Below are positions 2-40,067 of a DNA stretch of 58,885 bases, in pieces. This DNA is from a virus (Duplodnaviria; Caudoviricetes). Where the stretch lies: the IMG/VR virus record IMGVR_UViG_3300034120_000898, positions 1-58,885 of that record. One strand, 5' to 3'. Under the pieces are notes generated by a model. The model was not told where the DNA came from. It saw nothing but the letters and a program-made list of their open reading frames with translations, and searched no databases. Numbering within the stretch: the first letter of the stretch is position 1; each line of letters opens with the position of its first letter. The position numbers and the translations under genes were made by a program.

Positions 2-541
2 GAAGGATCATATGCATTTCATAATAACAAATTAAATTCTCAGCATATTATAGATCAACTTGATAAATATCAACCAGATGGTTATCAAGAGACAGGAATG
101 AGCTTTATGAGGCATCAGAGTCTTTCTGGCAATCATTTTAAAGTTGTAAGGTCTGGGAAAATATCTATAGATAAGACTTTTGGATATACTGCTGCTAAAG
201 TTTCGGAGAAATTAGAGCCTTATGCATATTCAAATACTATTCCTCTAAGAAGTAGTGTGAAAAGAATACCCATAAATTATGGTGAGTTCACAAGTATTTC
301 AGTATACATATACAAATCTATAACTCCTAATTATGATGGGACTCCTCCAAGATTAATATTAAGACAAAATTCTTCTATAGGATATTCTTATACTGTATTG
401 GCGACTAGTATAGAACCTAATGGAATATGGGAGAAATTGTTTGCTACTCTTCCGTTTGCTACTAATGATGGTGTTATGGAAGTTTATATAGAATGCAGTG
501 CCAATTCTGGTTATGTATCTGTTGATTATTGGAATTTCTAA
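2..541 (+). CDS. 3' end of a large tail spike/fibre protein, truncated by the window edge; paralog of the C-terminus of 586..5739
   Basis: Frame is open from base 2. Shares 'PPRLILR..S.G...VL...DGV.E.Y..C....G...VD.W' with the end of the next gene. Confidence 0.75.
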   Translation, partial: EGSYAFHNNKLNSQHIIDQLDKYQPDGYQETGMSFMRHQSLSGNHFKVVRSGKISIDKTFGYTAAKVSEKLEPYAYSNTIPLRSSVKRIPINYGEFTSISVYIYKSITPNYDGTPPRLILRQNSSIGYSYTVLATSIEPNGIWEKLFATLPFATNDGVMEVYIECSANSGYVSVDYWNF

Positions 542-11229: not shown

Positions 11230-11235
11230 TATTTA
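11230..11235 (-). promoter_or_regulatory. late promoter core TAAATA overlapping the upstream stop
   Basis: TAAATA-N5-ATG(11224). Confidence 0.7.
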
Positions 11236-14200: not shown

Positions 14201-16305
14201 TCATATACAGAATTCAGCACTATAAGTGTTCTTAATATTTCTGTTACAGCTTTTGAAGATCTTGTCCAATGATAACCACTAGTGGCAACTATTTCTGTGT
14301 TGGCATCATATATTTCGCTAGATAATGTTATTAAATCATTTATCAATAGTGCTGTACTAACATCATTGGCCCAAGCAGATGGAACAGTATACAAAACATT
14401 GTAAGTAGATATATTTTTATACATCAAATCCCACTTGCCAGAATTTGCCGAAAGTAAACTAATCATGTTTTCTTTTTTACTTTCCCATTGAATATAAGCA
14501 GGAATAATTATGTTATAAACAGAATTGTATACATCATTTTTGAAGTCACTTAAGAAATAATTAGTGGTTTCGTATATATTGTTCCAATAATCTATATTAT
14601 CAGACAATATAGATTTTGTGTATTCCCATTGAGCAGACCCTGCACTTACAAGAGTATTAATATCAGTATAGAAATAATTTGATGATGTCTGATTTAAATA
14701 TGTATAAAAATCGTCAAAAAATGGCTTATCTGTGATGTAATATTGTGTAGATAAAGCATTTATGATGTTGTAAGTATAATCCCAAAGTAAAGAATAGCTA
14801 CTATTTGATAGTTTGTATACCTCTTGCCATTTGGGTGCTTCTATTGATAGTAAAGCATTTAAATCAGAACTCTTCCATTTAGAAGAATTTGATTGTATAA
14901 GATTATACACTCCATCTAATAATGGAAAAAATGAACTTATATCATAATATTTTGTGCTTAGTTCATCCCATGTGTTGTACTTGGAATCTATAATATCTGC
15001 TGTGGAAGACCAATCTTGTCCACTTAAAGTTATTACGTTTTTGAGATCCTCGGATGTATATTCATCAGATACCCAATTCGGTGATAAACTAGAAACCAAA
15101 GAGACTTGTGTATCTAGTTCAGTTTTATCTTCTAATATAGAATCCCAGTTTGCGGAATTAGCTGATAAAGTGCATGCTATACTATAAATTCGGTCATTCC
15201 ATCCTGAAAAATTGCTCAAAATAGCATTCTTCATCTCGTTAAAACCAATACTATTGTAATAATAACTAGTACTTAAATTATCCGTTGTTATGTTTAAGAA
15301 CTGCCAATCTATACTTTTTGTTGTTACGGTATCTGTGTAAGTCATCCATTTAGCAGAATGACTACTGAGTATGGTGTTGGTTTCGGTGGAGTCCCAATTT
15401 GAAGAAAAACTACATACTGTATTATAATACGAATCAAATAAAGGAAATGCCTCTTCGGAAACAGAGCTTAACTGCTGTATTTTTGAGGTGTTGGTGTCCC
15501 ATCTAGACTCATTTGCTACAGTGTTATTATAAGATTCTACCCATGTTGCAGAATTAGCACAAACTAATGTGACTAAACTGGTGTCTGATATCCAATTTCC
15601 AGAATTTGATGTTAATGTATTATATAATAAAGAAAATTCATCTGTTCTGTCATACAAATCTATCAAAGATGAAGATATAGTTTCTGCTATAGTACTGTAA
15701 TTATGCCATCTTGTGATGTCTAAAGTATTTAAATTAGATGTATTAGCTGTTATGAAACTGTATAAAGTCTCGTAATTAACGCTTAATACGGTTACTAAAT
15801 TTAACTGTCCTTCAACTCTGTCTGCTCTTTGTTTTACTGTTCCGAATCTAGTTCTAACCAATTCATTCAAAACACTAAGGACTACCACCCCAGTAGTGTT
15901 ATACTGTTTATCACTTACAGTGTATAATATATTATCTATTCCGTTTTTACTGTATGAATCATAGTAAAGATTCTGACCATCGGTGTATGCGCTTCCGTAA
16001 TTGCCAGCTTTGACATCAATTATTGTTAATTCATCAAATGGATTTGTTAAATCAGTTACTAGGGATGATATGTTTAATTTTAAAGTGCTAGATACATTGG
16101 TAGATAATTCTACGATATTAGATATTGGTGGTCTGTTGTATGCATTTACAAATTTTGTATATATTATAGATCTGCTACCTTCTATTTGTTTATAAATAAA
16201 CGAATCATTCCCCGAAAATCCTACATTTGGGGTGTAAATAAATTCGGCATCATTCCAATAAACACTTCCATATAATGGTTGTTTAATAATTTCAATAAAA
16301 GCCAT
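11233..16305 (-). CDS. 1690-aa paralog of 6017..11224 with a more degenerate Trp-repeat stalk
   Basis: Same N-terminus 'PLYGSVYWND..FIYTPN.GF.G.D', same NSxxW repeats and same C-terminal domain ('...NYP....I.G...W...I....ILKF.L'). Confidence 0.75.
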   Translation of the reverse strand: MAFIEIIKQPLYGSVYWNDAEFIYTPNVGFSGNDSFIYKQIEGSRSIIYTKFVNAYNRPPISNIVELSTNVSSTLKLNISSLVTDLTNPFDELTIIDVKAGNYGSAYTDGQNLYYDSYSKNGIDNILYTVSDKQYNTTGVVVLSVLNELVRTRFGTVKQRADRVEGQLNLVTVLSVNYETLYSFITANTSNLNTLDITRWHNYSTIAETISSSLIDLYDRTDEFSLLYNTLTSNSGNWISDTSLVTLVCANSATWVESYNNTVANESRWDTNTSKIQQLSSVSEEAFPLFDSYYNTVCSFSSNWDSTETNTILSSHSAKWMTYTDTVTTKSIDWQFLNITTDNLSTSYYYNSIGFNEMKNAILSNFSGWNDRIYSIACTLSANSANWDSILEDKTELDTQVSLVSSLSPNWVSDEYTSEDLKNVITLSGQDWSSTADIIDSKYNTWDELSTKYYDISSFFPLLDGVYNLIQSNSSKWKSSDLNALLSIEAPKWQEVYKLSNSSYSLLWDYTYNIINALSTQYYITDKPFFDDFYTYLNQTSSNYFYTDINTLVSAGSAQWEYTKSILSDNIDYWNNIYETTNYFLSDFKNDVYNSVYNIIIPAYIQWESKKENMISLLSANSGKWDLMYKNISTYNVLYTVPSAWANDVSTALLINDLITLSSEIYDANTEIVATSGYHWTRSSKAVTEILRTLIVLNSVYDIVHYVAPYWGAIELGSTVGTFSANYDYIYQNLPYNYDYISNQVNILTTGYYNVTNNYLNPSYNLVKTLSNDWFTYKSRLSSLLLANSGNWETIYQSKSTFDNLTETVDDYKSKWISSFDFADKIYQANTVLSSTSADWQTISQQQSVFDSMYSIIRNNSSNYISNLDWITKIYEAQTILSSASADWVSIYNSKPIYDKNYTFILANSSSFSQMVTGAPYINSLILQTQTISSSLNDGYIKIPQFENMVNIIRTYSGGWTVDFKFVDNINSANLITRNNGDSWNTLYRSISTYDFLNSTVSSTSAYWLQLKDISFGDIVYDAKTILSSCSSNWDSLNNLNSDNTVEYLNAFNNQIGAISSDYFINSSNYSNASTAVSSASAKWLYRPDYTSFETNSANWQSTANNFVRYNNNSTYISALCANYPVFIPVVIEAKKEADIWSAYTDFIYLSGLGLNQNTSLLQSISYSVSTTNTNYDSLYQTVTTYNTIWDIDYLVRGINLWSPSWDKAYDVIFVDDFGSIWDSNITDAKSLCAVYYNNKNNKFLSVSSTVYNQQSSWEDTSIVNLLCANSSIWTEAYNTASAITGSWYFNEDDTYKTSYSYFNANSGALNDGYNLIVTNSGNWLSSVELLFPLTANAVSGAYDINLAAKYLIVYGDALINGTLTAAHLLRFASNIINLTSLVVNNSSNRVAALSVASRTPYVGVTHFRTASSSVLYINTQTGTLGVNISSIRGTTNTLTISGDLSAFGYITPYASQFVTTYTAKSGTYLSNYSYLTSNSATFTEFVSSYPKYDIIKSYVRANSGSYNTINSPSVLPIIFNQLSDYNYKTQYLSSYISVSGDSFGVDTRYRDNSGSYEDLYNYVNTTSSQVASSYQISYVFGYNAIRSRTYGLYNVNDDITIQGWTIYSDQPTFASIDILSGTYNNYPRTSSIIGNNIPHLDNTNPIFNYGIANPNHWRVNINRNSILKFVLQTNSAANYILINLRVTKR

Positions 16306-26687: not shown

Positions 26688-28433
26688 TTATCGTCCAATT
26701 GCTGTATAAGATATTATTGTTCCGATAGTTCCACCATTAGTAGAAAAACCATTTACAGTTTTTCCAGTAATCCAAGGAGGTGATCCAGTTTGTTGTCTAT
26801 CTTCGGATATAACTACTTGGTATACAGCATTAGTAAATACTTTAGGAAATGTTATTGTAGTAGCTCCTGATATCATTGCTTGCCCCCATTGCATTAATAC
26901 TCCACTTGGAAACTGCTGCCATCCAATAGCTGATAAAGAGGCTGCCATTGGTTTAGGTTGCCATTCTCCATATGTTTTGTCCCAAGTTAATACTGATCCA
27001 TCATCAATAGGCGTTAATGGTTTTGGTATATAATCTCCCGTAGGGACTACTATACCATTAACAGTTTGTTTGGCTTTTATACATGCCATTAATGCTACGT
27101 TACGGGGACGGGTTACTCCCCATCCTCCTTCACTAGTAACCGAACCCACACCAGGTGATGCTACACTACCAATATCTCTAGCTTCCGTGCCAGTATAATC
27201 ACTTAGATTTGTTATTGCATCATATCCCATGTTTGTTAATGCGGAACTAGAATTATCTACACCTAATCCTCTAGTAACGACATCAGTTCCGCAATCAAAT
27301 ACCATAACAGAACCTTTTTGATTACTACCAAAAACACGACCAGTATCTACACCTCTTCCATTATCCCAACCACGAACAAACTCTCCACGCAAATCTGGTA
27401 ATCTAAATTGATTTGCTAACTCACCACCTGTATTATAAGTTCCAGATATAGATAGATATAACTGTGTATAATCTGATTTATTCTTAACACTACCATCACA
27501 TTCTAAATATCCAGCAGGTGCAGTAGATAAAGCAAACCATGATATACTACCTATTGGAACTGAATCAAAATATTGACCATCAACATCTACTACTCCTGTA
27601 TTCGAATTAATATTCAATCCATTTCCAATTACAATTCCACCTAAAGTAGAATCTGTAGCTATTCTTACATTAGTCACCCCCTCTGGATTGGCACTTAATC
27701 CTGTTCCTATTCTTATAGATCCTATTTTTGATACAGATGCTATTTTATCTGCCGCATAAATGGTGTTATCAACATTATTTAATTTTATTGAATCTTCATC
27801 TATGTTAACATTTATGAATCCTGCATCTACGTTTATACCTCCTTTGCTACTATTTTTAAGAATACGAACTATCCCATGATTACTATATGATGCGTTTGTT
27901 GTTGTCCCACCACCACCTCCACCTCCACCTATAACTGTTAATTTATTTGATACTATGCTTAATGTAGTGGGATCATAATCAACAGATATTACTCCATTCA
28001 CCGCATTCAATCCATCTCCTACAATAACCCCACCTTTTGTAGTTTTTGTAGCATCAGGAAGTACAAATGTTCCACCCCCTCCTGTACTAGTCATACTATT
28101 CACTAGTTTTCTTCCACCAACTAATACATAATTATCTTCCATCAGATATCTATCACCAGTAAGAATATAAAATGCGCTAGTATCTGTTCTATATACACAA
28201 TCGTTTATTTGTATGTTTGGTAATTTTTGAAAACTATCTACAAACCATACTTTATTTCCTGCTAATATTCCACCCACACTAATATTATCCCCAACAAATA
28301 ATCTTTTCTTATCTGTAGACCATACAAGCTCCCCATCTTCGTATATTTGAGTCATTCTATCTGACTCTGGACCTCTCCGAACACGAATAATAGCTTTTAC
28401 TGGATCTGCTAATTGAAATGGATTACTAGGCAT
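26688..28433 (-). CDS. tail fibre: Mtd_N-like anchor, AT.T..G.V.. repeats, tail-collar domain, gp53-like C-terminus
   Basis: 'IRVRRG...GELVWSTDKKRLFVGD'; collar 'VPIGSISWFA...GYLECDG...FRLPDLRGEFVRGWDNGRGVD'; 'WQQFPSGVLMQWG...ITFPKVF'. Confidence 0.85.
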   Translation of the reverse strand: MPSNPFQLADPVKAIIRVRRGPESDRMTQIYEDGELVWSTDKKRLFVGDNISVGGILAGNKVWFVDSFQKLPNIQINDCVYRTDTSAFYILTGDRYLMEDNYVLVGGRKLVNSMTSTGGGGTFVLPDATKTTKGGVIVGDGLNAVNGVISVDYDPTTLSIVSNKLTVIGGGGGGGGTTTNASYSNHGIVRILKNSSKGGINVDAGFINVNIDEDSIKLNNVDNTIYAADKIASVSKIGSIRIGTGLSANPEGVTNVRIATDSTLGGIVIGNGLNINSNTGVVDVDGQYFDSVPIGSISWFALSTAPAGYLECDGSVKNKSDYTQLYLSISGTYNTGGELANQFRLPDLRGEFVRGWDNGRGVDTGRVFGSNQKGSVMVFDCGTDVVTRGLGVDNSSSALTNMGYDAITNLSDYTGTEARDIGSVASPGVGSVTSEGGWGVTRPRNVALMACIKAKQTVNGIVVPTGDYIPKPLTPIDDGSVLTWDKTYGEWQPKPMAASLSAIGWQQFPSGVLMQWGQAMISGATTITFPKVFTNAVYQVVISEDRQQTGSPPWITGKTVNGFSTNGGTIGTIISYTAIGR

Positions 28434-28438
28434 AATAA

Positions 28439-28444
28439 TATTTA
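28439..28444 (-). promoter_or_regulatory. late promoter core TAAATA overlapping the upstream stop
   Basis: TAAATA-N5-ATG(28433). Confidence 0.7.
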
Positions 28445-30340
28445 ACTAAAGTTTGCATTGAAAGTAGTTGGTCTACCTACTAAAGTGCCAGCACTTCCTC
28501 CAGCCCCGCCATCATCATAATAATAATTAAAATTAAATAACCCTCCACCTAGATTTTGATTCCATCCAGCCATAAACAAAGTTTTATCCTCTGTTACAGC
28601 TTTTAATGCCATTTCCGTGCCGTATCCACACAAATCAGCTTGATATACTTTTAAAATATTATTAAAAGTATAAGTATCTGTTCTATTGTCTGTTGCTTTA
28701 TTTGATAAAATTAATGTCTTAGTAAGCGGATCTACAACCAATACTTTTGTACCAGTTGGTATGCCTATACCTGTTACTGTCATTTGTTTGTTAATATAAA
28801 CATTTTCAGCTTTTGGTCCTGTTGGAGAAGGACCAGTTTTAGGAGAAAATATACTACTCATAACCATTCTGTCACTTCCAGCCGTTATAGTTCCAGTGAT
28901 AAGCAATGGATATCTGTCTGGATCTTGTACTAATGGTGGATCTTCTCCAAAATATTCATTCCTAGTAAATGTTGTAATTGGACCTTTTATTGGAACTCCT
29001 CCAATAGTTGCTCCTAATGCATAAGTTTCATTAAAACCAGCAGCATATAATGATCCGTCTTCATAAACAACTATAAATGCGCCATTTATCATTCCGTACA
29101 TACCACCTCCATGTATCATCCTAATTTTCTTTTTAGGTATAACAGCTTTTGTTGGAGAAAATGTATCCGTAGTGTTTCCTAGTCCTAATTGACCCCATTG
29201 ATTATTTCCCCAAGAATAAACTTCATCATCTGTAGTTGTTACTAACACTGAAGTTCCTCCCGCAGTTGTACAAATAGATGAAGCTTTTGTTAAACTAGTT
29301 TTTGTAGCTCGTATTCTAGTGTCTGATGATGTTAATCCCAAACCTAATTGACCAAACTTATTACTTCCGCATGTATAAACAAATCCATCACTTGTTAAAA
29401 AATAAGTACTCATATACGATGAAGAACCACCACCACTCCAAGTGGAACCTCCAATTACCGCTCCACCAATAAGTACCCAATTAGTCACCACAATATCTAT
29501 TACATTTGTTAATGGAGTTCCGTCTTCTTTACATACAGTTCTCCATTCATATATAATTCCATCAGTTGAATTAACTCCCAAACTTCCATGAGCATTATTT
29601 CCACATGCACTAACTAATCCTCCTTCTCTCAAAACAAAAGATCTACTATATGTAGTAACATTCCCACCAGGCCAAGAACCTGAATCAAGTGGTGATGTCG
29701 AAAATACTTTTAATGCATCGTTTATACCTAAGTAATTTGAATCCGTGCCAACATCTTTATCTAATAATTTTTGTGATCCATTAGCAAATCCAAATCCATA
29801 ATCTATTTTTGGGCCTAATCCATATAATTTTTTATTTCCTTTTACATATAATAAATAAGATTTTCCACTAATACAAAAATCAATAACATTTTTAGCAACC
29901 AAACAAAATTGTTTAGCTGCTTTAGCTGCTGATGCTGCGGAAGATTTATTTAACATGTATGTAGAATTGCTACCTGTTCCATACAATTCTCCATCAAAAG
30001 TCAAAAAGAAACTATTCATTGGATCTGCCCCACCAGATGAATATAGTCTAACTATAGTTTTTTTTACGCTATCCCATGTTATTAAACAAGTTGATGGCAC
30101 ATTACTATTTAATACTGAAGGAGCAACAGCACCATATCCAGTGCCTCCCCATGACATTATATTATTCTTATTTGCATTTATAATTAAACTAAAATGGTTT
30201 AATACCATTTGAGCTAAATCTAAACTGCTTTTTAAGTCTCTAGGTTTACAAGGAGGTTTAAGACAACAGCCGAAAGGATCTGTACAGTCATCTGGTCCAT
30301 CAAAAGGAGTATTTCTTCTATAAATCGGTGTTCCGTACAT
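28442..30340 (-). CDS. RCC1/BLIP-II-like beta-propeller tail protein with a Cys-rich N-terminus
   Basis: 'VYTCGSNKFGQLGLG', 'VYSWGNNQWGQLGLG', 'ACGNNAHGSLG'. Confidence 0.8.
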   Translation of the reverse strand: MYGTPIYRRNTPFDGPDDCTDPFGCCLKPPCKPRDLKSSLDLAQMVLNHFSLIINANKNNIMSWGGTGYGAVAPSVLNSNVPSTCLITWDSVKKTIVRLYSSGGADPMNSFFLTFDGELYGTGSNSTYMLNKSSAASAAKAAKQFCLVAKNVIDFCISGKSYLLYVKGNKKLYGLGPKIDYGFGFANGSQKLLDKDVGTDSNYLGINDALKVFSTSPLDSGSWPGGNVTTYSRSFVLREGGLVSACGNNAHGSLGVNSTDGIIYEWRTVCKEDGTPLTNVIDIVVTNWVLIGGAVIGGSTWSGGGSSSYMSTYFLTSDGFVYTCGSNKFGQLGLGLTSSDTRIRATKTSLTKASSICTTAGGTSVLVTTTDDEVYSWGNNQWGQLGLGNTTDTFSPTKAVIPKKKIRMIHGGGMYGMINGAFIVVYEDGSLYAAGFNETYALGATIGGVPIKGPITTFTRNEYFGEDPPLVQDPDRYPLLITGTITAGSDRMVMSSIFSPKTGPSPTGPKAENVYINKQMTVTGIGIPTGTKVLVVDPLTKTLILSNKATDNRTDTYTFNNILKVYQADLCGYGTEMALKAVTEDKTLFMAGWNQNLGGGLFNFNYYYDDGGAGGSAGTLVGRPTTFNANFS

Positions 30341-30341
30341 A

Positions 30342-31301
30342 TTAACTTAAATCTCCTGATATTAAAATTCTTGAAGAATCTATATATACTAAATTACAAA
30401 CTCCATATTTTTTACCTATAGTTCTATAATCATAAACATTTCCTATTGTAACCCCACCAGGCACCGAAGATATAAATGAAATACTAAAATTAGATAAGTT
30501 AACAATTAATGCATTAAATCCCACTGGAAGACCACTAGGTAACCCTATGTATCCTGCATCAGAAGCATCCACACAAACAACACAACCATTATCATTTTGT
30601 GTTAAATTATATTGATACGAATTACTAGCATTTAGCATTGTACTATTTGTTACTTTAACAGAAAAATGTTGTAATAATTTATTATTTAATTCTACATCTC
30701 CTTTAAAATTGGCTGCACTCAAAACACTTAATCCACTATTAATAGTAAGTGGACCCGTCATTGTGTCTCCTGATAAACGCACGAAATTATTTCCTATATC
30801 ATTTTTTAATCCGCTTAATCCTTGGTCTACAGACCATTTTGTAGCGGCATGCATTGCAGCAGTAGGATGTGCATGCAATGTTAAAAACCCAAACATTAAA
30901 TCACCACTTAATCTTACATAACCTAATCCACTATCTTTAAAATATGATGGATTTATACCATATTTTCCGTTTACAAACACCAAAGAAGGATCTACATCTG
31001 GTGTAATTCTTGCATAGTTTTGTATGTTATCTGGCCCTGCATTAGAACTAAGTATATACAATATAGTATTAGCATCATCAAAATATAAATCTCCGTATAT
31101 TCCAGATGGACTTGGAGTTCGATTTCCGTTTATATAATTTAAATTACCTACTAATTTTCCTCCTGTAGTTTCTCCATCACCAATAAAAAGATGACTTATA
31201 TCCGAAGAAAATACTATTTCTCCCCTGTCAAAAGTAATTAATCTTCTTTCGGAATCTGGACCTCTTCTTAATCTAATGATTGCTTCGACTTGATCGGACA
31301 T
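30342..31301 (-). CDS. short tail fibre with Mtd_N-like anchor
   Basis: 'IRLRRG...GEIVFSSDISHLFIGDG'; 'YVRLSGD.M.G.LTL..HPTAAMHAATKW.VD'. Confidence 0.75.
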   Translation of the reverse strand: MSDQVEAIIRLRRGPDSERRLITFDRGEIVFSSDISHLFIGDGETTGGKLVGNLNYINGNRTPSPSGIYGDLYFDDANTILYILSSNAGPDNIQNYARITPDVDPSLVFVNGKYGINPSYFKDSGLGYVRLSGDLMFGFLTLHAHPTAAMHAATKWSVDQGLSGLKNDIGNNFVRLSGDTMTGPLTINSGLSVLSAANFKGDVELNNKLLQHFSVKVTNSTMLNASNSYQYNLTQNDNGCVVCVDASDAGYIGLPSGLPVGFNALIVNLSNFSISFISSVPGGVTIGNVYDYRTIGKKYGVCNLVYIDSSRILISGDLS

Positions 31302-31390: not shown

Positions 31391-33112
31391 TTATAATATA
31401 AATGGTAATTTTACTGGTAGACTTCTATTGGTAGTTGTTCCATCTCCTAATTGTCCGTCATAATTACCTCCCCATGCTGATAATGTTCCGTCAAATCCTA
31501 GTGCTATCGTATGAAATGCACCAAGACAAATTTCTTTAAATGGTGGTAAATTTTTTACTTTTACTGGTGAACTTCTATTGGTAGTTGTTCCATCTCCTAA
31601 TTGTCCAGCATCATTCCTACCCCATGCTGATAATGTTCCGTCAAATCCTAACGCAAACGAGAAATCCAAACCCGTAGCGATTGTTTTAACTGGTGGCAGA
31701 TTTATTTTTACTGGTAACCTTCTATCGATAGTTGTTCTATCTCCTAATTCTCCGAAATTATTCTCTCCCCATGCTGATAATGTACCGTCAAATCCTAGTG
31801 CTAATACATGATCTCCAGTATTAGCAGCTATGGTTTTAACTGGTGGTAAATTTTTTACTTTTACTGGTAAACTTCTATCGGTAGTTGTTCCATCTCCTAA
31901 TTGTCCGTTATAATTATTCCCCCATGCTGATAATGTTCCGTCAAATCCTAGTGCATATGCAGATGTATTTCCACGAACAAAAATTTCTTTAACTGGTGGT
32001 AAATTTTTTACTTTTACTGGTAAACTTCTATTGGTAGTTGTTCCATCTCCTAATTGTCCAACAGCATTATTCCCCCATGCTGATAATGTTCCGTCAAATC
32101 CTAGTGCATATGCTTGAACATGCCCTACATCGATTGCTTTAACTGGTGGTAAATTTTTTACTTTTACTGGTAAACTTCTATCGGTAGTTGTTCCATCTCC
32201 TAATTGTCCGTTATAATTATTCCCCCATGCTGATAATGTTCCGTCAAATCCTAGTGCTAACGACATAGAATCACCAACAGAAGTTGCTTTAACTGGTGGT
32301 AAATTTTTTACTTTTACTGGTAAACTTCTATTGGTAGTTGTTCCATCTCCTAAATTTCCAAGAGCATTATTCCCCCATGCTGATAATGTTCCGTCAAGTC
32401 CTAGTGCTATCGTATAATATCCAGTCGTAGTAATACGTTTTAATTCTGCTAAATAAGCCACATTACTGCTAGCTGTTCCAACTATACTGTCTGTAGCAAC
32501 ACATTGATAAGCAGCAAAATCTGTTAATCCAACAGGATTTATTCGTAATAAATCCGAAGTTTTTCCTAATAATTGTCCTGTATCTTTTCTGCTCCATTGG
32601 TAGGTTATGGACCCTGGTCCCACGGCACTAACCATAAATGTCGCAAGATCACCAACATTGGAAATTACATCAAAAGGTTGGATAACCCATGTTAAAACGC
32701 CTAGAGGTGGAGGTGGAGGTGGTGGAGGTGGTGTAATACATCCTGTTAACACACTTAAAGCCACTAACATTAATTTTACTTGCTCTCGATAATAATCAAA
32801 ACAATTATCGTCAGTAATTACTAAAGGAATTAAAGTTCCGCTATTGTCTTTGTCTAATATAACAGTTTGTCCAAGTACTGGATTAAAAATAATATCTCCG
32901 TATCCAGCTTTTTTTGGTATTGCCAAAGTAGGTGAGCTAACAATATAATTATTGTTTCCTACAGTTACTCCTGCTTTACTTACTCCGTCTCCTACATGAA
33001 GGTGTGTTTTGTCTGTTAAGTACACTAATTCACCAGAATCGAAAGTTATATTATTCGCTTCGCTTGCAATTCCTTTTCTTAGCTTTACTTTTGCTATCCT
33101 TCTGTGTATCAT
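31391..33112 (-). CDS. adhesin: Mtd_N-like anchor, poly-Pro linker, I-set Ig domain, 7-repeat RCC1 propeller
   Basis: 'VKLRKG...GELVYLTD..HLHVGDG'; P9 run; 'QPFDV...G..ATF...ITYQW....D.A.YQCVAT'; 7x 'ALG.DGTLSAWG.N..G.LGD.TT'. Confidence 0.85.
   Translation of the reverse strand: MIHRRIAKVKLRKGIASEANNITFDSGELVYLTDKTHLHVGDGVSKAGVTVGNNNYIVSSPTLAIPKKAGYGDIIFNPVLGQTVILDKDNSGTLIPLVITDDNCFDYYREQVKLMLVALSVLTGCITPPPPPPPPPLGVLTWVIQPFDVISNVGDLATFMVSAVGPGSITYQWSRKDTGQLLGKTSDLLRINPVGLTDFAAYQCVATDSIVGTASSNVAYLAELKRITTTGYYTIALGLDGTLSAWGNNALGNLGDGTTTNRSLPVKVKNLPPVKATSVGDSMSLALGFDGTLSAWGNNYNGQLGDGTTTDRSLPVKVKNLPPVKAIDVGHVQAYALGFDGTLSAWGNNAVGQLGDGTTTNRSLPVKVKNLPPVKEIFVRGNTSAYALGFDGTLSAWGNNYNGQLGDGTTTDRSLPVKVKNLPPVKTIAANTGDHVLALGFDGTLSAWGENNFGELGDRTTIDRRLPVKINLPPVKTIATGLDFSFALGFDGTLSAWGRNDAGQLGDGTTTNRSSPVKVKNLPPFKEICLGAFHTIALGFDGTLSAWGGNYDGQLGDGTTTNRSLPVKLPFIL
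31421..32440 (-). repeat. 7-unit coding tandem array: ~120-bp near-identical scaffolds alternating with unique 30-33-bp segments
   Basis: Unit length 147-153 bp. 31835-31954 and 32138-32257 are identical over 120 bp. Confidence 0.95.
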
Positions 33113-33117
33113 AACAA

Positions 33118-34863
33118 TTAAAATAATTTTATTCTAGTATTTATTGGTACATTACTATCAGTAGTTGTTCCGTTTCCTAATGTTCCGTATTTATTATTTC
33201 CCCATGCTGATAATATGCCATTAAATCCTAATACATATACAATATAATTTCTTCCTGTAAGATCTCCAGGACCACCATCTTGATAAACACCTGCATAAAT
33301 ATCTTTAACTGGTGGCAAATTTATTTTGATTGGTACTTTACTATTAGTAGTTGTTCCGTCTCCTAATTGTCCAAAATTATTACCTCCCCATGCTGATAGT
33401 GAGCCATCAAATCCTAGTGCATAACTAGTAAACATATTAGAAGCAATTTTTTTGATTGGTGGTAAGTTTATTTTAATTGGTACTCTACTACTAGTAGTTG
33501 TTCCATCTCCTAATGAAACAGTTGTATCCGTATTACGCCCCCAAGCTGATAATGTATTATTAACTCCTAATGCATATACAATACATCTTTGAGTAGAAAT
33601 TTGTTTAACTGGTGGCAGATTTATTTTGATTGGTACAAAACTGCTAGCAATTGTTCCATTTGCGTGTTGCCCAAAATTATTACGCGCCCATGCCGATAAT
33701 CCCCCGTCAAACCCTATTGCAAAGCAACAATGATTTGCATCAACATGAAGTTGTTCAAATGGTGGTAGATTTATTTGTATTGGTATTCTACTACCAGTAG
33801 TTGTTCCGTTTCCGTATTCTCCCCACGAATTACTTCCCCATGCTGATAATGTTCCATCAACTCCTAATGCATAGCAACATCTACTTCCACCTAAATTAGG
33901 ACCAATATAGAATTGTTTAACTGGTGGCAGATTTATTTTAATTGGCACATTGCTACTAGTAGTTGTTCCGTTTCCTAATTCCCCTGCGCTATTACGCCCC
34001 CATCCTGATAATGTGCCGTCAATTCCTAGTGCATATGATGATTGATAACCAGCAGCAATATCTAATATGTTTGATAAATGTATTTTAATTGGTGATAAGC
34101 TATTAGTAGTTGTTCCGTTTCCTACTAAACCAAATCCTACATTATATCCACCCCATGCTGATAATGTGCCATCAAATCCTAGTGCTAATGTATGTAACCC
34201 TGTAGTAACAAATTTATACTCTTTTATTTCATCCAAATAAACCACATTACTGCTAGTAGTTCCAACTATACTGTCTGTAGCAACACATTGATATCCAGCA
34301 TAATCTGTTACTAAAACAGGATTTATACTCAATGTGTTTGAAGTTTTTCCTAATAATGGTCCTGTATCTTTTCTGTTCCATTGATATGTTATGCTCCCTG
34401 TTCCTATCGCACTAGCAGTGAACATCACAGTATCACCAACATTAGCAGTTACATCAAAAGGTTGAATAGTCCATGTTATACCTCCTAAACATGCTTTTAA
34501 TTCGTTAATTTTATTCCATAAATCTATTATTCGACTCCTCAAATTGATGCATATAGAGGTATCATATATTAAAATTAAGTTCAATTCTCCTGTAGGTTCC
34601 ATGCCTACTATATAAGTTTTTCCTAATGTCTTGTCGTGTATAATATCGCCATATGCACCATTATATGGTACAGTAGTAACTACAGTCGATATAATGTGAT
34701 TTTTGTTAGATACTAAAATGCCACCATAAGTAGTACCATCTCCTATGTATAGTCGTTTTCTATCAGTGATATAAACGAATTCGCCTAGTTCAAAGATAGT
34801 TCCTATTCTTTGTTCTTCAGTTCCTCTCCTTACTTTAATACTACCTGTTCTACGATCTATCAT
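33118..34863 (-). CDS. paralogous adhesin: Mtd_N-like anchor, I-set Ig domain, 7-repeat RCC1 propeller
   Basis: 'IKVRRG...GEFVYITDRKRLYIGDG'. Ig domain is highly similar to the neighbour at DNA level. 7x 'LG..G.LS.W..N..G...GT'. Confidence 0.85.
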   Translation of the reverse strand: MIDRRTGSIKVRRGTEEQRIGTIFELGEFVYITDRKRLYIGDGTTYGGILVSNKNHIISTVVTTVPYNGAYGDIIHDKTLGKTYIVGMEPTGELNLILIYDTSICINLRSRIIDLWNKINELKACLGGITWTIQPFDVTANVGDTVMFTASAIGTGSITYQWNRKDTGPLLGKTSNTLSINPVLVTDYAGYQCVATDSIVGTTSSNVVYLDEIKEYKFVTTGLHTLALGFDGTLSAWGGYNVGFGLVGNGTTTNSLSPIKIHLSNILDIAAGYQSSYALGIDGTLSGWGRNSAGELGNGTTTSSNVPIKINLPPVKQFYIGPNLGGSRCCYALGVDGTLSAWGSNSWGEYGNGTTTGSRIPIQINLPPFEQLHVDANHCCFAIGFDGGLSAWARNNFGQHANGTIASSFVPIKINLPPVKQISTQRCIVYALGVNNTLSAWGRNTDTTVSLGDGTTTSSRVPIKINLPPIKKIASNMFTSYALGFDGSLSAWGGNNFGQLGDGTTTNSKVPIKINLPPVKDIYAGVYQDGGPGDLTGRNYIVYVLGFNGILSAWGNNKYGTLGNGTTTDSNVPINTRIKLF

Positions 34864-35057: not shown

Positions 35058-37070
35058 TTAACCTCCTATTCTATATTGAACAAGTAAATTCGCATCGCTA
35101 TTAAATTTAATAGTTATTAAATCTGTTGTATTACAAGACATAGGTATTGTAACTGTAGAAGATGTTGTTCCTCCTCCAATTTCAGTTAATGTTCCTGCTA
35201 CAGATTTATAAATTTTAAATCCATCGGTGTTTTCATTTAAAAATGTATATGCAGTTCCTCTTCTTAAACTTGCAAAAATGTAATAACCCCATGTTGATGG
35301 AGTAACATAAAAAGCTGCTTTGTACCAACCACCAAAATTATATTGCTTGATATATATACCAACGCCAGTTTCTAATTTTATTTTAAGAACATTTGGTGTG
35401 TAGGTATCTGCTTGTGTATAATCAACTATATAACCCAAATCTTCTAATGCTCCCAAAGATATTTTAGACAAAGGCATATCTGAAGAGTTTTCTGCATTAG
35501 AAGACATTAATTCTCCTATCATAGCATAGGCTCCTCCTGTTATATTACCATAATATGTTCTGTTATCGTATCCTGTTAAAATTCCATAAGTACTAAAATC
35601 TGGAATACCTTCATACCAATGACTTCCGTATGATCCTGCACCCAAAATACTTTCTACTGGAATCGCAGTAACATTAGAAGAAAATGTTTGGTTATAATGA
35701 TATACAGCTTTTGAAGAATTTCCTACTGAAGTATTTGGATTGTATGCTATACTGTATGTGGTATCGCCTCGTTTTCTACCTTCAACCAATAAAGATCCTT
35801 GACTATTTGCTGTTCTAGATCCATCTCCTCTATTTATAGTATAGAAAATATTTCCTGTAGGACCGAATGGGTTTGTATTAGAGGTGTCTCCAGCACCAAC
35901 TATAAAACTTCTATGTACGTTAGAACCAACTCCGTAATCTAATACATGCCATTCTGTACCAAATCCTAATGTATGACCTAATTCGTGTAAAACCGTGTAA
36001 TATAATTCAGAAACTCCTAAATCTGTTATAGGATTTAATGATGTTGAAAATTTTCCAGAATTCAAAATGATATATCCAACGACAGGAATTCTATTAGATT
36101 TTGATCCAATATATTGTCTAGAAAAAAGTTTTCCAGCATATCCTAATGTATCTGATAATGAAGCTACTGAGTTCCAATTTTCTTGACCTATTGTTAATAT
36201 TAATCCGTCAAAATATTCGTCCTCAAAAGGATTTGGCAATATTTCTCCATATCCAGCAAAAACTGTGTACATTGTACCAGGAACTTTATACCTAGGAAGT
36301 TTAGTATTTTTTAAAATATTTGACCATCTATTAGCAGCAGAAATAACAATATCTTTTACAGAATCTGTCCATGCAGGTGTAATTGTATCTTTTACAAATA
36401 TTAATTTTATTTTATATCCTTGATCTATCTCGTATATATCAAACGAATATTGGTCGTCTAGAGTATCATTAGTAAATACTCCAATATCTCCATAAACAAC
36501 CCAATTATTAATATCAGTTTTTAGTAAATTAATTACAGAATTTTTTTCTTTTGATACTATTTTATATCCAGCAAGTTCTATGTTGGAGTTTAATGTGACT
36601 GCATTGGTTTCTACATCTATTTCTATGATACCTGTGTTCTCTTGTACTAAGACAATCTGCGTTCCGATAGGAATTGGTTGTGAGGCATTCGATGGGACTG
36701 ATACAGTTACTTTACTTGTGGAATTTACTTTTACTATATAGCCTGCTTCGCTTACATTAAGTAATGTGTCATTATAAATAGTTTTTACTCTAAAATTACT
36801 AGATAATTTAAATTTACTACTTGTAGAATCATATATTATAACATTTCCATTAACTGCTCCAGTGCTTACTATAGCACTAACATCTAGAGTAGTAGTGCTT
36901 GTGCCTGATGAAGTATTTACTCCATCCAAAACAAAAGATTTTATTTGCTGTAAATTTGCTTGATATGTGGTTCTAGTAAGACCAAACCCATCCAATTGAG
37001 AAATTGGTAATACGTCCCCTGCTGTACAAGACAGAGGAAGTGTTGGCAAATTTATTATTTTAATTCCCAT
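35058..37070 (-). CDS. tail-associated protein with a leishmanolysin-like (M8) zinc metallopeptidase domain
   Basis: 'AANRWSNIL', 'VLHELGHTLGFG', 'GSYGSHWYE', 'GELMS', 'PLSKISLGALEDLGYIVDY'; fibre-type N-terminus 'IKIINLP...GDVLPI'. Confidence 0.8.
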   Translation of the reverse strand: MGIKIINLPTLPLSCTAGDVLPISQLDGFGLTRTTYQANLQQIKSFVLDGVNTSSGTSTTTLDVSAIVSTGAVNGNVIIYDSTSSKFKLSSNFRVKTIYNDTLLNVSEAGYIVKVNSTSKVTVSVPSNASQPIPIGTQIVLVQENTGIIEIDVETNAVTLNSNIELAGYKIVSKEKNSVINLLKTDINNWVVYGDIGVFTNDTLDDQYSFDIYEIDQGYKIKLIFVKDTITPAWTDSVKDIVISAANRWSNILKNTKLPRYKVPGTMYTVFAGYGEILPNPFEDEYFDGLILTIGQENWNSVASLSDTLGYAGKLFSRQYIGSKSNRIPVVGYIILNSGKFSTSLNPITDLGVSELYYTVLHELGHTLGFGTEWHVLDYGVGSNVHRSFIVGAGDTSNTNPFGPTGNIFYTINRGDGSRTANSQGSLLVEGRKRGDTTYSIAYNPNTSVGNSSKAVYHYNQTFSSNVTAIPVESILGAGSYGSHWYEGIPDFSTYGILTGYDNRTYYGNITGGAYAMIGELMSSNAENSSDMPLSKISLGALEDLGYIVDYTQADTYTPNVLKIKLETGVGIYIKQYNFGGWYKAAFYVTPSTWGYYIFASLRRGTAYTFLNENTDGFKIYKSVAGTLTEIGGGTTSSTVTIPMSCNTTDLITIKFNSDANLLVQYRIGG

Positions 37071-38837: not shown

Positions 38838-40067
38838 TTACCATTTTATGGCATAAACCATTGCCATGTTTTTAGGTCTAGTTTCTTTTGCTAAAGGATC
38901 AGACGCATCTGGAAAGTTTTCGGTATAACCACCAGATCCTTTTTTAATTACATTTGTTGCACCAACACCTACAGAAACACCAGCACCCGAAGAGGTAATC
39001 CCTGGTGGAGTAATAGATACATATACCAGTGCAATCGCATAGCTACTATATACATCTAGAGAACCATCACTAATATTGTGTAAATCGTGTTTATGACTTT
39101 TTAGTATATCTTGTTGTACCGATCCTATTGCTCTAGAAGTGTCAGTATCTTGAAAAACGTGTCCTGTTTCTCCTGTTCTTACATGATCCCAACCACGAAC
39201 AAACAAACCTCTTAAATCAGGAATTGCAAATTTAGAAGATCCTATAACTGTTCCAGAAGAATAGTTCCATTTTATTATTGCAAATAATTCTGGAAATAAT
39301 GCGGTGTCATAAAGACTTCCATCACACTCTAACCATCCATCAGGCATGGTATTTGGAGAAGTAGCTCCGTTATATGCAGAAACGGGAAAAATAGCAACCA
39401 TTCCTATAGGAATTTCATTTCTTTTTGGATCTGGCGTTCTTGGATATGTTGGTGGAGGTCCAACAGGATCTTTTGGATCTGGTATGGTAATAATTTTGCT
39501 TACCTTTAAATATCTTATATTAACTTCTCCTGTGGCTCGATTTATCCATAAAGGAGAAAACAAATCAGGCTGGAAGTAATCATTTTTGATATAAAAATTT
39601 CTAGATAAATCATTATTAACCTTTAAGGTAAATAAATTCCTATTATTATTGATAATATTAGGATTTCCGTAAATTAATTCGAAATTTTCTGAAGATTCTC
39701 TTATTCTAACTTTTCCTGCTTCTAAACCATTAAGAGATCGTAACGAAACTTCTGATCCTACATTATTAATTGTTACATCGTTTATAGTACCTCCGCTTAA
39801 TAAAGATACATTTCCACCAATTGCAGCATTTCCAGTTAAAGAAAAATTTTGACTTACAGATAAAGATTTACTAATACTAACATCACCAGATATATCTGCT
39901 CCCATGTTAATACCACCAAGAGTTAATGCTGTTGGAGTACCTTGACCATCATATACTATCTGTTTTTCGAATGTAGTAGTATCGATACTATGGGGCATAT
40001 GCATCAAACCCCGAAATGTTCGTGATATTCTTCTTCCTACTAAATTGCTTGCAATTTCTTCTGCCAT
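38838..40067 (-). CDS. paralogous short-tail-fibre-like protein with tail-collar domain
   Basis: 'IPIGMVAIF...PDGWLECDG...FAIPDLRGLFVRGWD...ETRPKNMAMVYAIKW'; collinear with 37541..38833. Confidence 0.85.
   Translation of the reverse strand: MAEEIASNLVGRRISRTFRGLMHMPHSIDTTTFEKQIVYDGQGTPTALTLGGINMGADISGDVSISKSLSVSQNFSLTGNAAIGGNVSLLSGGTINDVTINNVGSEVSLRSLNGLEAGKVRIRESSENFELIYGNPNIINNNRNLFTLKVNNDLSRNFYIKNDYFQPDLFSPLWINRATGEVNIRYLKVSKIITIPDPKDPVGPPPTYPRTPDPKRNEIPIGMVAIFPVSAYNGATSPNTMPDGWLECDGSLYDTALFPELFAIIKWNYSSGTVIGSSKFAIPDLRGLFVRGWDHVRTGETGHVFQDTDTSRAIGSVQQDILKSHKHDLHNISDGSLDVYSSYAIALVYVSITPPGITSSGAGVSVGVGATNVIKKGSGGYTENFPDASDPLAKETRPKNMAMVYAIKW

What the first reader, a model, noticed from the sequence alone, without database searches (positions are those of the whole stretch)
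31421..32440. Constant-scaffold / variable-cassette RCC1 propeller: a repeat-spacer-like array inside a phage adhesin gene
Seen: seven ~150-bp units. The ~120-bp scaffolds are nearly or fully identical, including synonymous sites (31835-31954 = 32138-32257). The intervening in-frame segments are unrelated and vary in length (30 or 33 bp): RITTTGYYTI, ATSVGDSMSL, AIDVGHVQAY, EIFVRGNTSAY, TIAANTGDHVL, TIATGLDFSF, EICLGAFHTI. A second micro-variable site (NNAL/NNYN/NNAV/NNYN/ENNF/RNDA/GNYD) sits after WG. Known: RCC1 repeats form 7-bladed propellers. Inference: both variable sites lie on one binding face. Loops diverged this far within an undiverged scaffold imply either targeted cassette exchange or scaffold homogenisation plus strong diversifying selection. 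Either would give an antibody/VLR-like receptor-binding repertoire distinct from DGRs and shufflons.
Basis: partly seen in the sequence, partly recalled or inferred. Interest (0 to 1): 0.85.

Follow-up and report, generated by a model that had tools for sequence, protein, structure and literature searches.

The report
Phage RCC1 propeller with homogenised blades
A tail-fibre-like gene of an uncultured lake phage ends in a seven-bladed RCC1 propeller whose blade frameworks are kept almost identical at the DNA level while one hairpin and one loop per blade stay blade-specific, which fits copying between repeats plus selection on a binding face and not a dedicated cassette-swapping machine.

Summary
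Gene 31391-33112 (minus strand, 573 aa) carries seven 150/153-nt RCC1 units. Their 111-120-nt scaffolds differ at 0-20 nt, and two are identical over exactly 120 nt. A 30/33-nt block per unit is only about 43% identical. Three or four codons after WG also vary.

The variable block is not an unrelated spacer. It is the strand-turn-strand hairpin of each blade and keeps its core Ile, Gly and hydrophobic positions. Synonymous sites inside it have diverged, so it looks older than the scaffolds.

Four natural alleles show stable cassettes: identical in three, and 7 of 51 residues changed in the 89%-identical one. They also show whole-unit deletion or duplication at scaffold joints. The window holds no reverse transcriptase, recombinase or donor copy, but it is only about 27% of the genome.

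Best reading: short-tract gene conversion homogenises the scaffolds, while selection keeps blade-specific residues on one face of a host-binding head. The closest published analogue is the fungal NLR WD40 repeats with high internal conservation. This scan has noted the same pattern before in other large phages.

Unit order and number rest on short-read assemblies and are not verified. Function is untested.

The parts
31391..33112 (-). Whole gene, 573 aa: N-terminal anchor domain, Pro-rich linker, Ig-like domain, seven RCC1 units
   Evidence: ORF list. Pfam WD40_RLD 255 bits and RCC1 242.7 bits in 7 stretches; Ig_3 aa 144-207; Mtd_N aa 9-45 at 24.6 bits, below the 26.3 cut-off.
32813..33112 (-). 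N-terminal ~100-aa domain shared with three neighbouring genes; putative fibre anchor
   Evidence: Alignment A2 of four gene starts: 30-38% identity and 15 invariant columns. Mtd_N hit below cut-off here, above it (26.9 bits) in the paralog.
32708..32734 (-). Nine-proline linker (aa 127-135)
   Evidence: Translation. Model pLDDT is below 50 across aa 100-222.
32459..32683 (-). Ig-like domain (aa 144-218)
   Evidence: Pfam Ig_3 and I-set hits below cut-off. The same domain is above cut-off in paralog 33118-34863.
32288..32437 (-). Unit u1: cassette 32408-32437, scaffold 32288-32407
   Evidence: A Logan contig piece 32368-32504 is exact in X1 and X4.
32138..32287 (-). Unit u2: cassette 32258-32287, scaffold 32138-32257 (identical to the u4 scaffold)
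   Evidence: Pieces 32230-32352 (X1), 32230-32331 (X2) and 32218-32353 (X4) are exact.
31988..32137 (-). Unit u3: cassette 32108-32137, scaffold 31988-32107
   Evidence: X8 piece 32073-32203 has 1 difference.
31835..31987 (-). Unit u4 (51 aa): cassette 31955-31987 (33 nt), scaffold 31835-31954
31685..31834 (-). Unit u5: cassette 31802-31834 (33 nt), scaffold 31685-31801 (most diverged scaffold, one codon shorter)
31535..31684 (-). Unit u6: cassette 31655-31684, scaffold 31535-31654
31394..31534 (-). Unit u7 (47 aa, last strand closes the ring): cassette 31505-31534, scaffold 31394-31504
   Evidence: Piece 31477-31599 is exact in X1 and X2. The model has a long final strand, 563-572.
33118..34863 (-). 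Upstream paralog, 581 aa, same architecture. Scaffolds are less homogenised (nt identity 0.75) and cassettes equally diverged (0.43), with loop insertions

Best explanation
The gene encodes a tail-fibre-type protein whose C-terminal head is a seven-bladed RCC1-like propeller. In the array, the roughly 120-nt stretch of each unit that encodes strands 3-4, the long GQLGDG loop and strand 1 of the next blade is repeatedly overwritten by short-tract gene conversion between units, that is, by concerted evolution. The 30/33-nt stretch that encodes the strand-turn-strand hairpin escapes conversion. Two reasons are proposed. It is too diverged to pair, and copies that lose their blade-specific hairpin are removed by selection. 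The hairpin turn and the three residues after WG lie on one face of the propeller. That face is the likely host-binding surface, so each blade contributes a different patch. Because the scaffolds are identical, recombination between them also deletes or duplicates whole blades. Shown here: the sequence pattern, the fold, the allele comparison and the absence of machinery in the window. Inferred: gene conversion as the mechanism, selection, the binding face and the adhesin role.
For: (1) The boundary is sharp and the identity is at codon level. Same codon for the same residue: 615/657 in scaffolds against 19/34 in cassettes (p=5e-9). The longest exact repeat is exactly the u2/u4 scaffold, 120 nt.
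(2) The cassettes look older than the scaffolds. Ile and Gly columns inside cassettes use 3 codons each. There are one-codon indels. The paralog has equally diverged cassettes (0.43) with scaffolds at only 0.75 nt identity. That value is roughly what purifying selection alone preserves.
(3) Conversion is recent. u2 and u4 scaffolds are identical in this allele, yet the same two units of the 89%-identical allele P0002 differ from each other at 4 residues.
(4) The cassettes are inherited. They are identical in P0001, P0241 and P0003, and P0002 shows 7 of 51 changes over five orthologous units.
(5) Whole-unit events occur at scaffold joints. P0003 lacks u3+u4 exactly. P0002 carries copies of its own units 2-3 in place of units 5-6.
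(6) Fold: pLDDT is above 90 over the array, with four strands per unit, and the cassette is strand-turn-strand. The best PDB match is UVR8, TM 0.85 normalised to the target, rmsd 2.6.
(7) Face: the cassette G-x-x-x aligns with UVR8 G-W-R-H, and the residue after WG aligns with the second Trp of the UVR8 SWGWG motif. The UVR8 triad Trps, R286/R338 and W94 are all at its dimer interface (PMC4501546 passages).
(8) The pattern is family-wide. In 44 other RCC1 ORFs with internally conserved repeats, within-protein identity drops to 0.12-0.16 at the same five positions, two in the turn and three after WG.
(9) Between strains, changes concentrate there: 15 of 71 variable-site residues against 5 of 177 other scaffold residues (p=1e-5).
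(10) Context: tail-collar-fibre and baseplate-wedge PHROG hits nearby, and four consecutive genes share the N-terminal domain.
Against: No DNA of the close alleles could be obtained, so there is no dN/dS and no direct test of concerted evolution at synonymous sites. Positional orthology of cassettes with the paralog is only marginal: 249 of 5040 permutations score at least as well, and only u1 is clear. Cassette change between strains (7/51) is not significantly above the N-terminal part (12/225, p=0.058), so diversifying selection on the whole hairpin is not shown. About half of each cassette is beta-strand and is probably partly buried, so not all of it can be binding surface. Only 27% of the genome is in hand. 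Unit order and number come from short-read assemblies. Binding and virion location are untested.
Confidence: 0.65

Rival explanations
1. Recent amplification of one blade unit, followed by very fast change of the hairpin through positive selection or local hypermutation. Under this reading the cassettes are younger than the scaffolds.
For: Scaffolds are near-identical, including synonymous sites. Between-strain changes are enriched at the turn and the WG site.
Against: Synonymous codons of conserved residues inside the cassettes have diverged (19/34 against 615/657), which selection on protein sequence alone does not predict. There are one-codon indels. The paralog has the same cassette divergence with older scaffolds. 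The u1 cassette clearly matches u1 of the paralog, with the highest score in the matrix. Cassettes are identical in three of four alleles.
Confidence: 0.1
2. A dedicated diversification system writes or swaps the cassettes, of DGR, shufflon or donor-cassette type.
For: The array looks like repeat-spacer DNA. The N-terminal domain resembles that of Mtd, the classical DGR target. 73% of the genome is unseen.
Against: The window has no RVT_1, resolvase or phage-integrase hit. No second copy of a scaffold lies outside the two paralogs. No cassette has a match better than shuffled controls. Third codon positions vary, so the pattern is not adenine-only. Cassettes are stable across alleles and runs.
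Confidence: 0.04
3. The pattern, or at least the unit order and number, is an artefact of short-read assembly across a repeat.
For: P0003 equals the window protein with the loop between the two identical 120-nt scaffolds left out, which is what a collapsed assembly would give. P0002 has an exact internal two-unit duplicate. k=31 contigs break inside every scaffold, so they cannot confirm the order. Short-read assemblies of comparable fungal repeats are reported to be unreliable (PMC12222747 abstract).
Against: An assembler cannot create sequence identity. The identical 573-aa protein is on 4 contigs, and P0241 on a fifth contig has the same array. Cassette-plus-flank pieces are exact in runs of different studies. 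The longest exact repeat is 120 nt, shorter than the largest k-mers of common metagenome assemblers (for the length; the assembler settings are recalled).
Confidence: 0.06
4. The hairpins are merely unconverted islands with a structural role and no ligand binding. The protein is not an adhesin.
For: Half of each cassette is strand with conservative replacements. PHROGs label the family 'regulator of chromosome condensation'. The function of phage RCC1 proteins is stated to be unknown (PMC7247149 passage).
Against: The five most variable positions coincide with the hypervariable positions of 44 other RCC1 proteins and with the UVR8 interface residues. The gene sits among fibre genes that share its N-terminal domain.
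Confidence: 0.12

Closest known systems
HNWD/NWD WD40 repeats of Podospora anserina NLR-like proteins (het-d, het-e, het-r) and other fungal NLR repeats with 'high internal conservation'
   Same: These are beta-propeller repeats kept highly similar by concerted evolution, with a few hypervariable positions per repeat on the interaction surface and with repeat-number and repeat-combination polymorphism. Short-read assemblies of them are unreliable (PMC4986451 passages; PMC12222747 abstract).
   Different: Here the repeat is RCC1, not WD40, and the protein is a phage fibre, not an NLR (no NACHT or NB-ARC domain). The variable part is a contiguous 10-11-residue hairpin plus a second site, not four scattered residues. 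Whole-unit identity is about 72-78%, below the 85% criterion. Positive selection was not tested.
RCC1-like domains with solved structures, above all Arabidopsis UVR8 (4dnw, 4d9s), also HERC2 RLDs and human RCC1
   Same: The fold is a seven-bladed propeller: TM 0.85 normalised to the target, 27-28% identity; phmmer E=4e-45. The interface residues of UVR8 (GWRHT and the Trp after WG) align with the two variable sites.
   Different: The cellular proteins have diverged blades and no DNA-level homogenisation. There is no photoreceptor Trp triad here.
Diversity-generating retroelement targets (Bordetella phage BPP-1 Mtd)
   Same: Both are phage fibre proteins with a similar N-terminal domain (PF18454) and a variable binding surface.
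   Different: Mtd varies a C-type-lectin fold through a reverse transcriptase and a template repeat. Neither is present in the window, and the variation here is not adenine-specific.
RCC1-like proteins of jumbo phages (phAPEC6, eleven copies)
   Same: Large phages carry several RCC1-like genes (PMC7247149 passage).
   Different: That paper proposes a DNA-ordering role and reports no internal repeat homogenisation in the passages I read.
Lamprey variable lymphocyte receptors and designed consensus-repeat binders
   Same: A constant repeat framework carries variable surface residues.
   Different: VLRs are assembled somatically from donor cassettes. No donors or somatic variation are seen here.

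Membership tests
RCC1-like repeat beta-propeller (PF00415, PF25390) | Pfam hits above the curated cut-offs | tested here: met
   WD40_RLD 255 bits (cut-off 150). RCC1 242.7 bits (cut-off 21.7), 7 stretches.
RCC1-like repeat beta-propeller (PF00415, PF25390) | Seven four-stranded blades closing a ring | tested here: met
   AlphaFold2 model has 28 strands over aa 224-572 with pLDDT mostly above 90. Foldseek match to UVR8: TM 0.85, 362 aligned columns.
Repeats with high internal conservation and hypervariable sites (fungal NLR type) | Repeats over 85% identical over at least 100 aa (criterion in PMC4986451) | tested here: inconclusive
   Mean column identity of the scaffolds is 0.84-0.85, and u1-u4 scaffolds differ at 0-9 of 120 nt. 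Whole units including cassettes fall to about 72-78%.
Repeats with high internal conservation and hypervariable sites (fungal NLR type) | Variable positions lie on the ligand-binding surface | tested here: inconclusive
   Supported by meander topology and by alignment to UVR8 interface residues. No coordinates were available and no ligand is known.
Repeats with high internal conservation and hypervariable sites (fungal NLR type) | Repeat-number or repeat-combination polymorphism between alleles | tested here: inconclusive
   P0003 has 5 units, and P0002 has units 2-3 copied over units 5-6. Either could be an assembly error.
Repeats with high internal conservation and hypervariable sites (fungal NLR type) | Positive selection (dN/dS above 1) at the variable codons | not testable with these tools
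Repeats with high internal conservation and hypervariable sites (fungal NLR type) | NLR architecture (NACHT or NB-ARC domain upstream) | tested here: not met
   Pfam finds only Mtd_N, Ig and RCC1 families. The resemblance is in how it works, not in membership.
Diversity-generating retroelement target | Reverse transcriptase gene nearby | tested here: not met
   No RVT_1 match in the 58.9-kb record; the control genomes gave matches. Only 27% of the genome is held.
Diversity-generating retroelement target | Template repeat whose adenines correspond to the variable bases | tested here: not met
   Scaffold copies exist only in the two paralogs. No cassette copy matches above chance. All three codon positions vary.
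Shufflon or invertible-cassette system | Site-specific recombinase | tested here: not met
   No resolvase or phage-integrase match in the window.
Shufflon or invertible-cassette system | Inverted repeats flanking the segments | not tested
   All units are direct repeats in one frame. No separate scan for inverted repeats was run.
CRISPR-type repeat-spacer array | Non-coding array of short repeats with acquired spacers | tested here: not met
   The array is one open frame of a 573-aa RCC1 protein. The 'spacers' are homologous hairpins.
Phage fibre with Mtd_N-type N-terminal domain (PF18454) | Hit above the curated cut-off | tested here: inconclusive
   24.6 bits against a cut-off of 26.3 for this gene, and 26.9 bits for the paralog. 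The domain is shared by four consecutive genes.

The most novel reading that the evidence does not exclude
The identical scaffolds may be kept not only as a by-product of conversion but because they serve as recombination sites. Under this reading, each blade with its hairpin is an exchangeable module, and one crossover between scaffolds deletes, duplicates or transplants blades, as the P0003 and P0002 alleles suggest. A large phage could then change its host-binding surface combinatorially within and between its RCC1 fibre genes, without any dedicated enzyme. That would be a protein-coding counterpart of a repeat-spacer array.
Probability: 0.15. Interest if true: 0.7.

Novelty: new variant of a known kind. 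Interest (0 to 1): 0.45.

Why it matters
If the reading holds, large freshwater phages use RCC1 propellers as host-recognition heads that evolve the way fungal immune receptors do: a frozen framework, a small variable face, and blades that can be reshuffled by ordinary recombination. That would add a third route to receptor-binding variation in phages, beside retroelement mutagenesis and exchange of whole fibre domains. It would also offer a natural consensus-framework binder. My four paper searches found no description of this for RCC1 repeats or for phages. There is also a practical warning: such genes are prone to misassembly from short reads.

Tried and rejected
Searches that found no close relative:
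- BLASTN of the gene against the phage collection gave no match.
- The viral-contig scan gave 5 loci at 35-41% identity.
- The metagenome-contig scan kept 80 loci, the best at 53% identity.
- The protein search for shorter fragments listed 120 proteins, the best at 57% identity, with no close fragment. Only the 8000 candidates sharing most words were scored.

Because of this, no allele DNA, dN/dS or synonymous-site test of concerted evolution was possible.

Other dead ends:
- Laying Logan contigs of runs X1, X2, X4 and X8 could not confirm unit order. The k=31 contigs end inside the scaffolds. Bins without cover and the many 'joints' are cross-alignments of the upstream paralog's repeats and of other RCC1 genes. 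I read record 3 (1809 nt) as a contig that runs from 32480 into the paralog. The 35-nt exact match between the paralogs at that place supports this.
- Loose ends that join a scaffold to other cassettes occur in 4 of 4 runs. They match no gene of the window (compared by eye). They may be further paralogs or relatives, and I do not count them as evidence of exchange.
- The positional-orthology test of cassettes against the paralog was marginal, 249 of 5040 permutations.
- Free-end pairwise alignment of cassettes gave meaningless short overlaps. I use the codon-aligned figures instead.
- Model coordinates are not exposed to scripts, so solvent exposure was not computed.
- The DGR, shufflon and CRISPR readings were considered and rejected, as set out in the membership test.
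Full report
**What the window is.** The window is a complete IMG/VR virus record of 58,885 bases, classed as linear and estimated by CheckV to be 27% complete. GC content is 31%. Around the finding lie tail genes. Two genes match tail-collar-fibre families (38838-40067 and 26688-28433). One matches a baseplate wedge subunit (52403-54232). Several very large ORFs have no known family. Twenty-four public runs hold words of the region, and most are labelled lake water metagenomes.

**The observation.** ORF 31391-33112 on the minus strand encodes 573 aa. Pfam finds an N-terminal Mtd_N-like stretch (24.6 bits, just under the 26.3 cut-off), an Ig-like domain and seven RCC1 repeats.
- Tandem Repeats Finder gives a 150-nt period with 6.7 copies.
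- In frame, the units are 50, 50, 50, 51, 50, 50 and 47 residues long.
- In the codon alignment, columns 12-51 are almost invariant, including third positions. Columns 1-11 are highly variable, as are columns 24, 26 and 27, with 29 and 37 less so.
- Scaffold pairs differ at 0-20 of 110-120 nt. Units u1-u4 form a tight group with 0-9 differences.
- The u2 and u4 scaffolds are identical over exactly 120 nt. This is the longest exact repeat in the array, and it ends at the cassettes on both sides.
- Where two units share a residue, they share the codon in 615 of 657 scaffold cases but in only 19 of 34 cassette cases (Fisher p=5e-9).

The array is 31394-32437. The cassettes are not unrelated: they keep Ile at column 2, Gly at column 6 and hydrophobic residues at columns 4 and 11.

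**How unusual it is.** I built a unit HMM and split RCC1 proteins into units.
- Protein hits: all 120 best hits had at least 4 units. Many bacterial proteins have internally conserved repeats (scaffold column identity 0.7-0.83), but their cassette columns are conserved too (0.5-0.86). Only this gene's alleles and its paralog combine high scaffold identity with low cassette identity: P0001 0.84 against 0.19, P0002 0.86 against 0.28, P0003 0.80 against 0.19, P0045 0.67 against 0.24. These figures come from the 25 listed proteins with the highest scaffold identity. The other 95 have scaffold identity of 0.67 or less.
- DNA level: 79 RCC1 ORFs had at least 5 units, out of 108 ORFs with hits, taken from 85 fetched loci plus the window. 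This gene has the highest scaffold identity (0.90) and shares the lowest listed cassette identity (0.43) with its paralog (0.75 against 0.43).
- Protein-level contrast among those 79: this gene ranks first (0.63), its paralog second (0.57), and a 5.4-kb viral contig held twice (L012 = L064) third (0.50).

**A family-wide pattern.** In the 44 non-window ORFs (of 77) whose scaffold identity is at least 0.6, the mean within-protein identity falls to 0.12-0.16 at five positions. These are the two residues after the hairpin Gly and positions 1, 3 and 4 after WG. Neighbouring columns stay at 0.6-0.99. What is special here is that variability extends over the whole hairpin.

**Structure.** An AlphaFold2 model built from a 58-sequence alignment gives pLDDT mostly above 90 over aa 223-572. 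Confidence is low for the linker and Ig part.
- Each unit has four strands. The cassette covers four residues of one strand, a three-residue turn and three residues of the next strand, for example strands 324-329 and 333-338 around turn 330-332.
- In a four-strand meander, successive loops alternate between the two faces. The hairpin turn and the start of the long loop after WG therefore lie on the same face. This step is an inference from topology.
- The best solved match is UVR8 (TM 0.85 normalised to the target, rmsd 2.6 over 362 columns).
- In the phmmer alignment, the cassette G-x-x-x aligns with the UVR8 G-W-R-H motif, and the residue after WG aligns with the second Trp of SWGWG.
- Passages of PMC4501546 place the triad Trps 233/285/337, Arg 286/338 and Trp 94 at the UVR8 dimer interface. 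That Trp 94 is the Trp of SWGWG is my recollection.
About half of each cassette is strand and is probably partly buried.

**Natural alleles.** The protein search found three close relatives, and a cluster look-up found a fourth.
- P0001 is identical to the window protein and occurs on 4 contigs.
- P0241 differs at 8 residues, all between aa 49 and 178, and at 0 of 348 residues in the array. Four of the eight are shared with P0002, so it looks like a recombinant of N-terminal and head modules.
- P0003 (472 aa) is the window protein without u3 and u4. The u2 scaffold is joined to the u5 cassette, exactly at the identical 120-nt scaffolds.
- P0002 (572 aa, 89% identity) keeps the u1 and u2 cassettes unchanged. 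It changes 1, 3 and 3 residues in u3, u4 and u7. In place of u5 and u6 it carries exact copies of its own units 2 and 3.
- Over the five orthologous units, cassettes differ at 7 of 51 residues, scaffolds at 13 of 197 (8 of the 13 at the WG site) and the N-terminal part at 12 of 225.
- Turn-plus-cassette and WG-site residues together change at 15 of 71, against 5 of 177 elsewhere in the scaffolds (p=1e-5). Cassettes alone against the N-terminal part give p=0.058.
- The u2 and u4 scaffolds, identical here, differ at 4 residues in P0002. At least one homogenising event is therefore younger than the split of these strains, assuming P0002 is correctly assembled.

**Reads.** Only Logan contigs (k=31) were available, for runs X1, X2, X4 and X8. 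They break inside the scaffolds, as expected. Pieces carrying a cassette with both flanks are exact: 31477-31599 in X1 and X2; 32230-32352 or slightly shorter or longer in X1, X2 and X4; 32368-32504 in X1 and X4. Piece 32073-32203 in X8 has one difference. This supports the cassette-scaffold joints in independent studies. It says nothing about unit order.

**Machinery and donors.** The window has no RVT_1, resolvase or phage-integrase match, while control genomes gave matches. Scaffold-like DNA occurs only in this gene and in the upstream paralog. For each of the 7 cassettes, the best match elsewhere in the window (10-12 mismatches of 30-33) is no better than for shuffled cassettes. Variation affects all three codon positions, unlike adenine-directed mutagenesis. 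The unseen 73% of the genome remains a caveat.

**Interpretation.** The cassettes look older than the scaffolds. Their synonymous sites have diverged, there are one-codon indels, and the paralog shows the same cassette divergence with scaffolds at only 0.75. The scaffolds look recently and repeatedly overwritten. Short-tract gene conversion between misaligned units explains this. Conversion would be limited by the heterologous hairpin block and filtered by selection that keeps blade-specific residues on one face. The whole-unit deletion and duplication in P0003 and P0002 are what unequal recombination at identical scaffolds would produce, but they are also what assembly errors would produce. 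I put this reading at about 0.65.

Rivals:
- Recent amplification followed by fast cassette change: 0.10.
- A dedicated diversifier: 0.04.
- An artefact of assembly for the pattern itself: 0.06. Uncertainty about unit order and number is higher than that.
- A purely structural role without binding: 0.12.

**Comparison with what is known.** The closest published system is the set of fungal NLR WD40, ANK and TPR repeats with high internal conservation. These show concerted evolution, a few hypervariable surface positions, repeat-number polymorphism and unreliable short-read assemblies (PMC4986451 passages; PMC12222747 abstract and impact statement). This gene works like them but is not a member. 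It has no NLR domains, it uses a different repeat family, and its whole-unit identity is below their 85% criterion. Jumbo phage phAPEC6 is reported to encode eleven RCC1-like proteins of unknown role (PMC7247149 passage). Four searches found no paper describing homogenised RCC1 repeats with variable faces in phages. Supplements were closed, and subscription journals are not covered.

**Earlier notes of this scan.** After recording my own reading, I found that the scan had already noted the same pattern in other large phages (e1-5703762, e1-5743027, e1-5402133, e1-5831665, e1-5860878), with the same analogue. They agree with my reading. One of them reports loop codons scrambled between near-identical strains, which is not the case here. 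A first-reader note on this genome (e1-6294332) claims DNA exchange between the two paralogs. I found 72% overall identity, a longest exact match of 35 nt and a best local identity of 80% over 125 nt, so there is no sign of recent exchange.

**Verdict.** The pattern is real and striking, in a probable host-binding head. The mechanism is ordinary recombination plus selection, not a cassette system. I class it as a new variant of a known kind, with interest 0.45.

Noticed in passing
window 26688-28433, 30342-31301, 31391-33112, 33118-34863 (all minus strand): Four consecutive genes share an N-terminal domain of about 100 aa (30-38% identity, Mtd_N-like) but carry different C-terminal parts: a tail-collar-fibre domain, an unknown domain, and two RCC1 propellers. 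This looks like a set of alternative fibres on one attachment site.
   Followed up: partly
window 28442-30340 (-): A third RCC1 protein (632 aa) lacks the shared N-terminal domain. It has a Cys/Pro-rich start and an extra C-terminal region of about 200 aa with no family match.
   Followed up: no
window 35058-37070 (-): This 670-aa protein of the tail module contains an H-E-x-x-H-x-x-G-x-x-x-x-x-H motif typical of zinc metalloproteases. Its only PHROG hit is weak, to a minor tail protein.
   Followed up: no
protein P0241 compared with P0001 and P0002: P0241 has the array of the window allele unchanged (0 of 348 differences) but 8 N-terminal changes, four of them shared with P0002. It appears to be a recombinant between the anchor and head modules.
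   Followed up: partly
window 32475-32509 and 34259-34293: A 35-nt exact match is the only long identity between the two paralogs, which are otherwise about 72% identical. It explains the break of k=31 contigs there. I found no sign of recent exchange between the paralogs.
   Followed up: yes
loose ends of runs X1, X2, X4, X8 at window 32258, 31505, 31765: In all four runs, contigs fit a scaffold and then continue into other RCC1-type sequence not present in the window. There are therefore further RCC1 genes with similar scaffolds in the same samples, either in the unseen part of this genome or in relatives.
   Followed up: partly
loci L009-L093 (44 RCC1 ORFs with scaffold identity of at least 0.6): Across unrelated bacterial and viral RCC1 proteins with internally conserved repeats, the same five positions per repeat are hypervariable within a protein (identity 0.12-0.16). 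The phenomenon is therefore family-wide.
   Followed up: partly
window 586-5739 (+), 6017-11224 (-), 11233-16305 (-): Three ORFs of about 1700 aa each have almost no family match. One has a hit to phrog_3545, of unknown function.
   Followed up: no
L012 / L064 (the same 5.4-kb contig in two collections): A five-unit RCC1 ORF shows the next-largest contrast between scaffold and cassette identity (0.70 against 0.19) after the two window genes.
   Followed up: no
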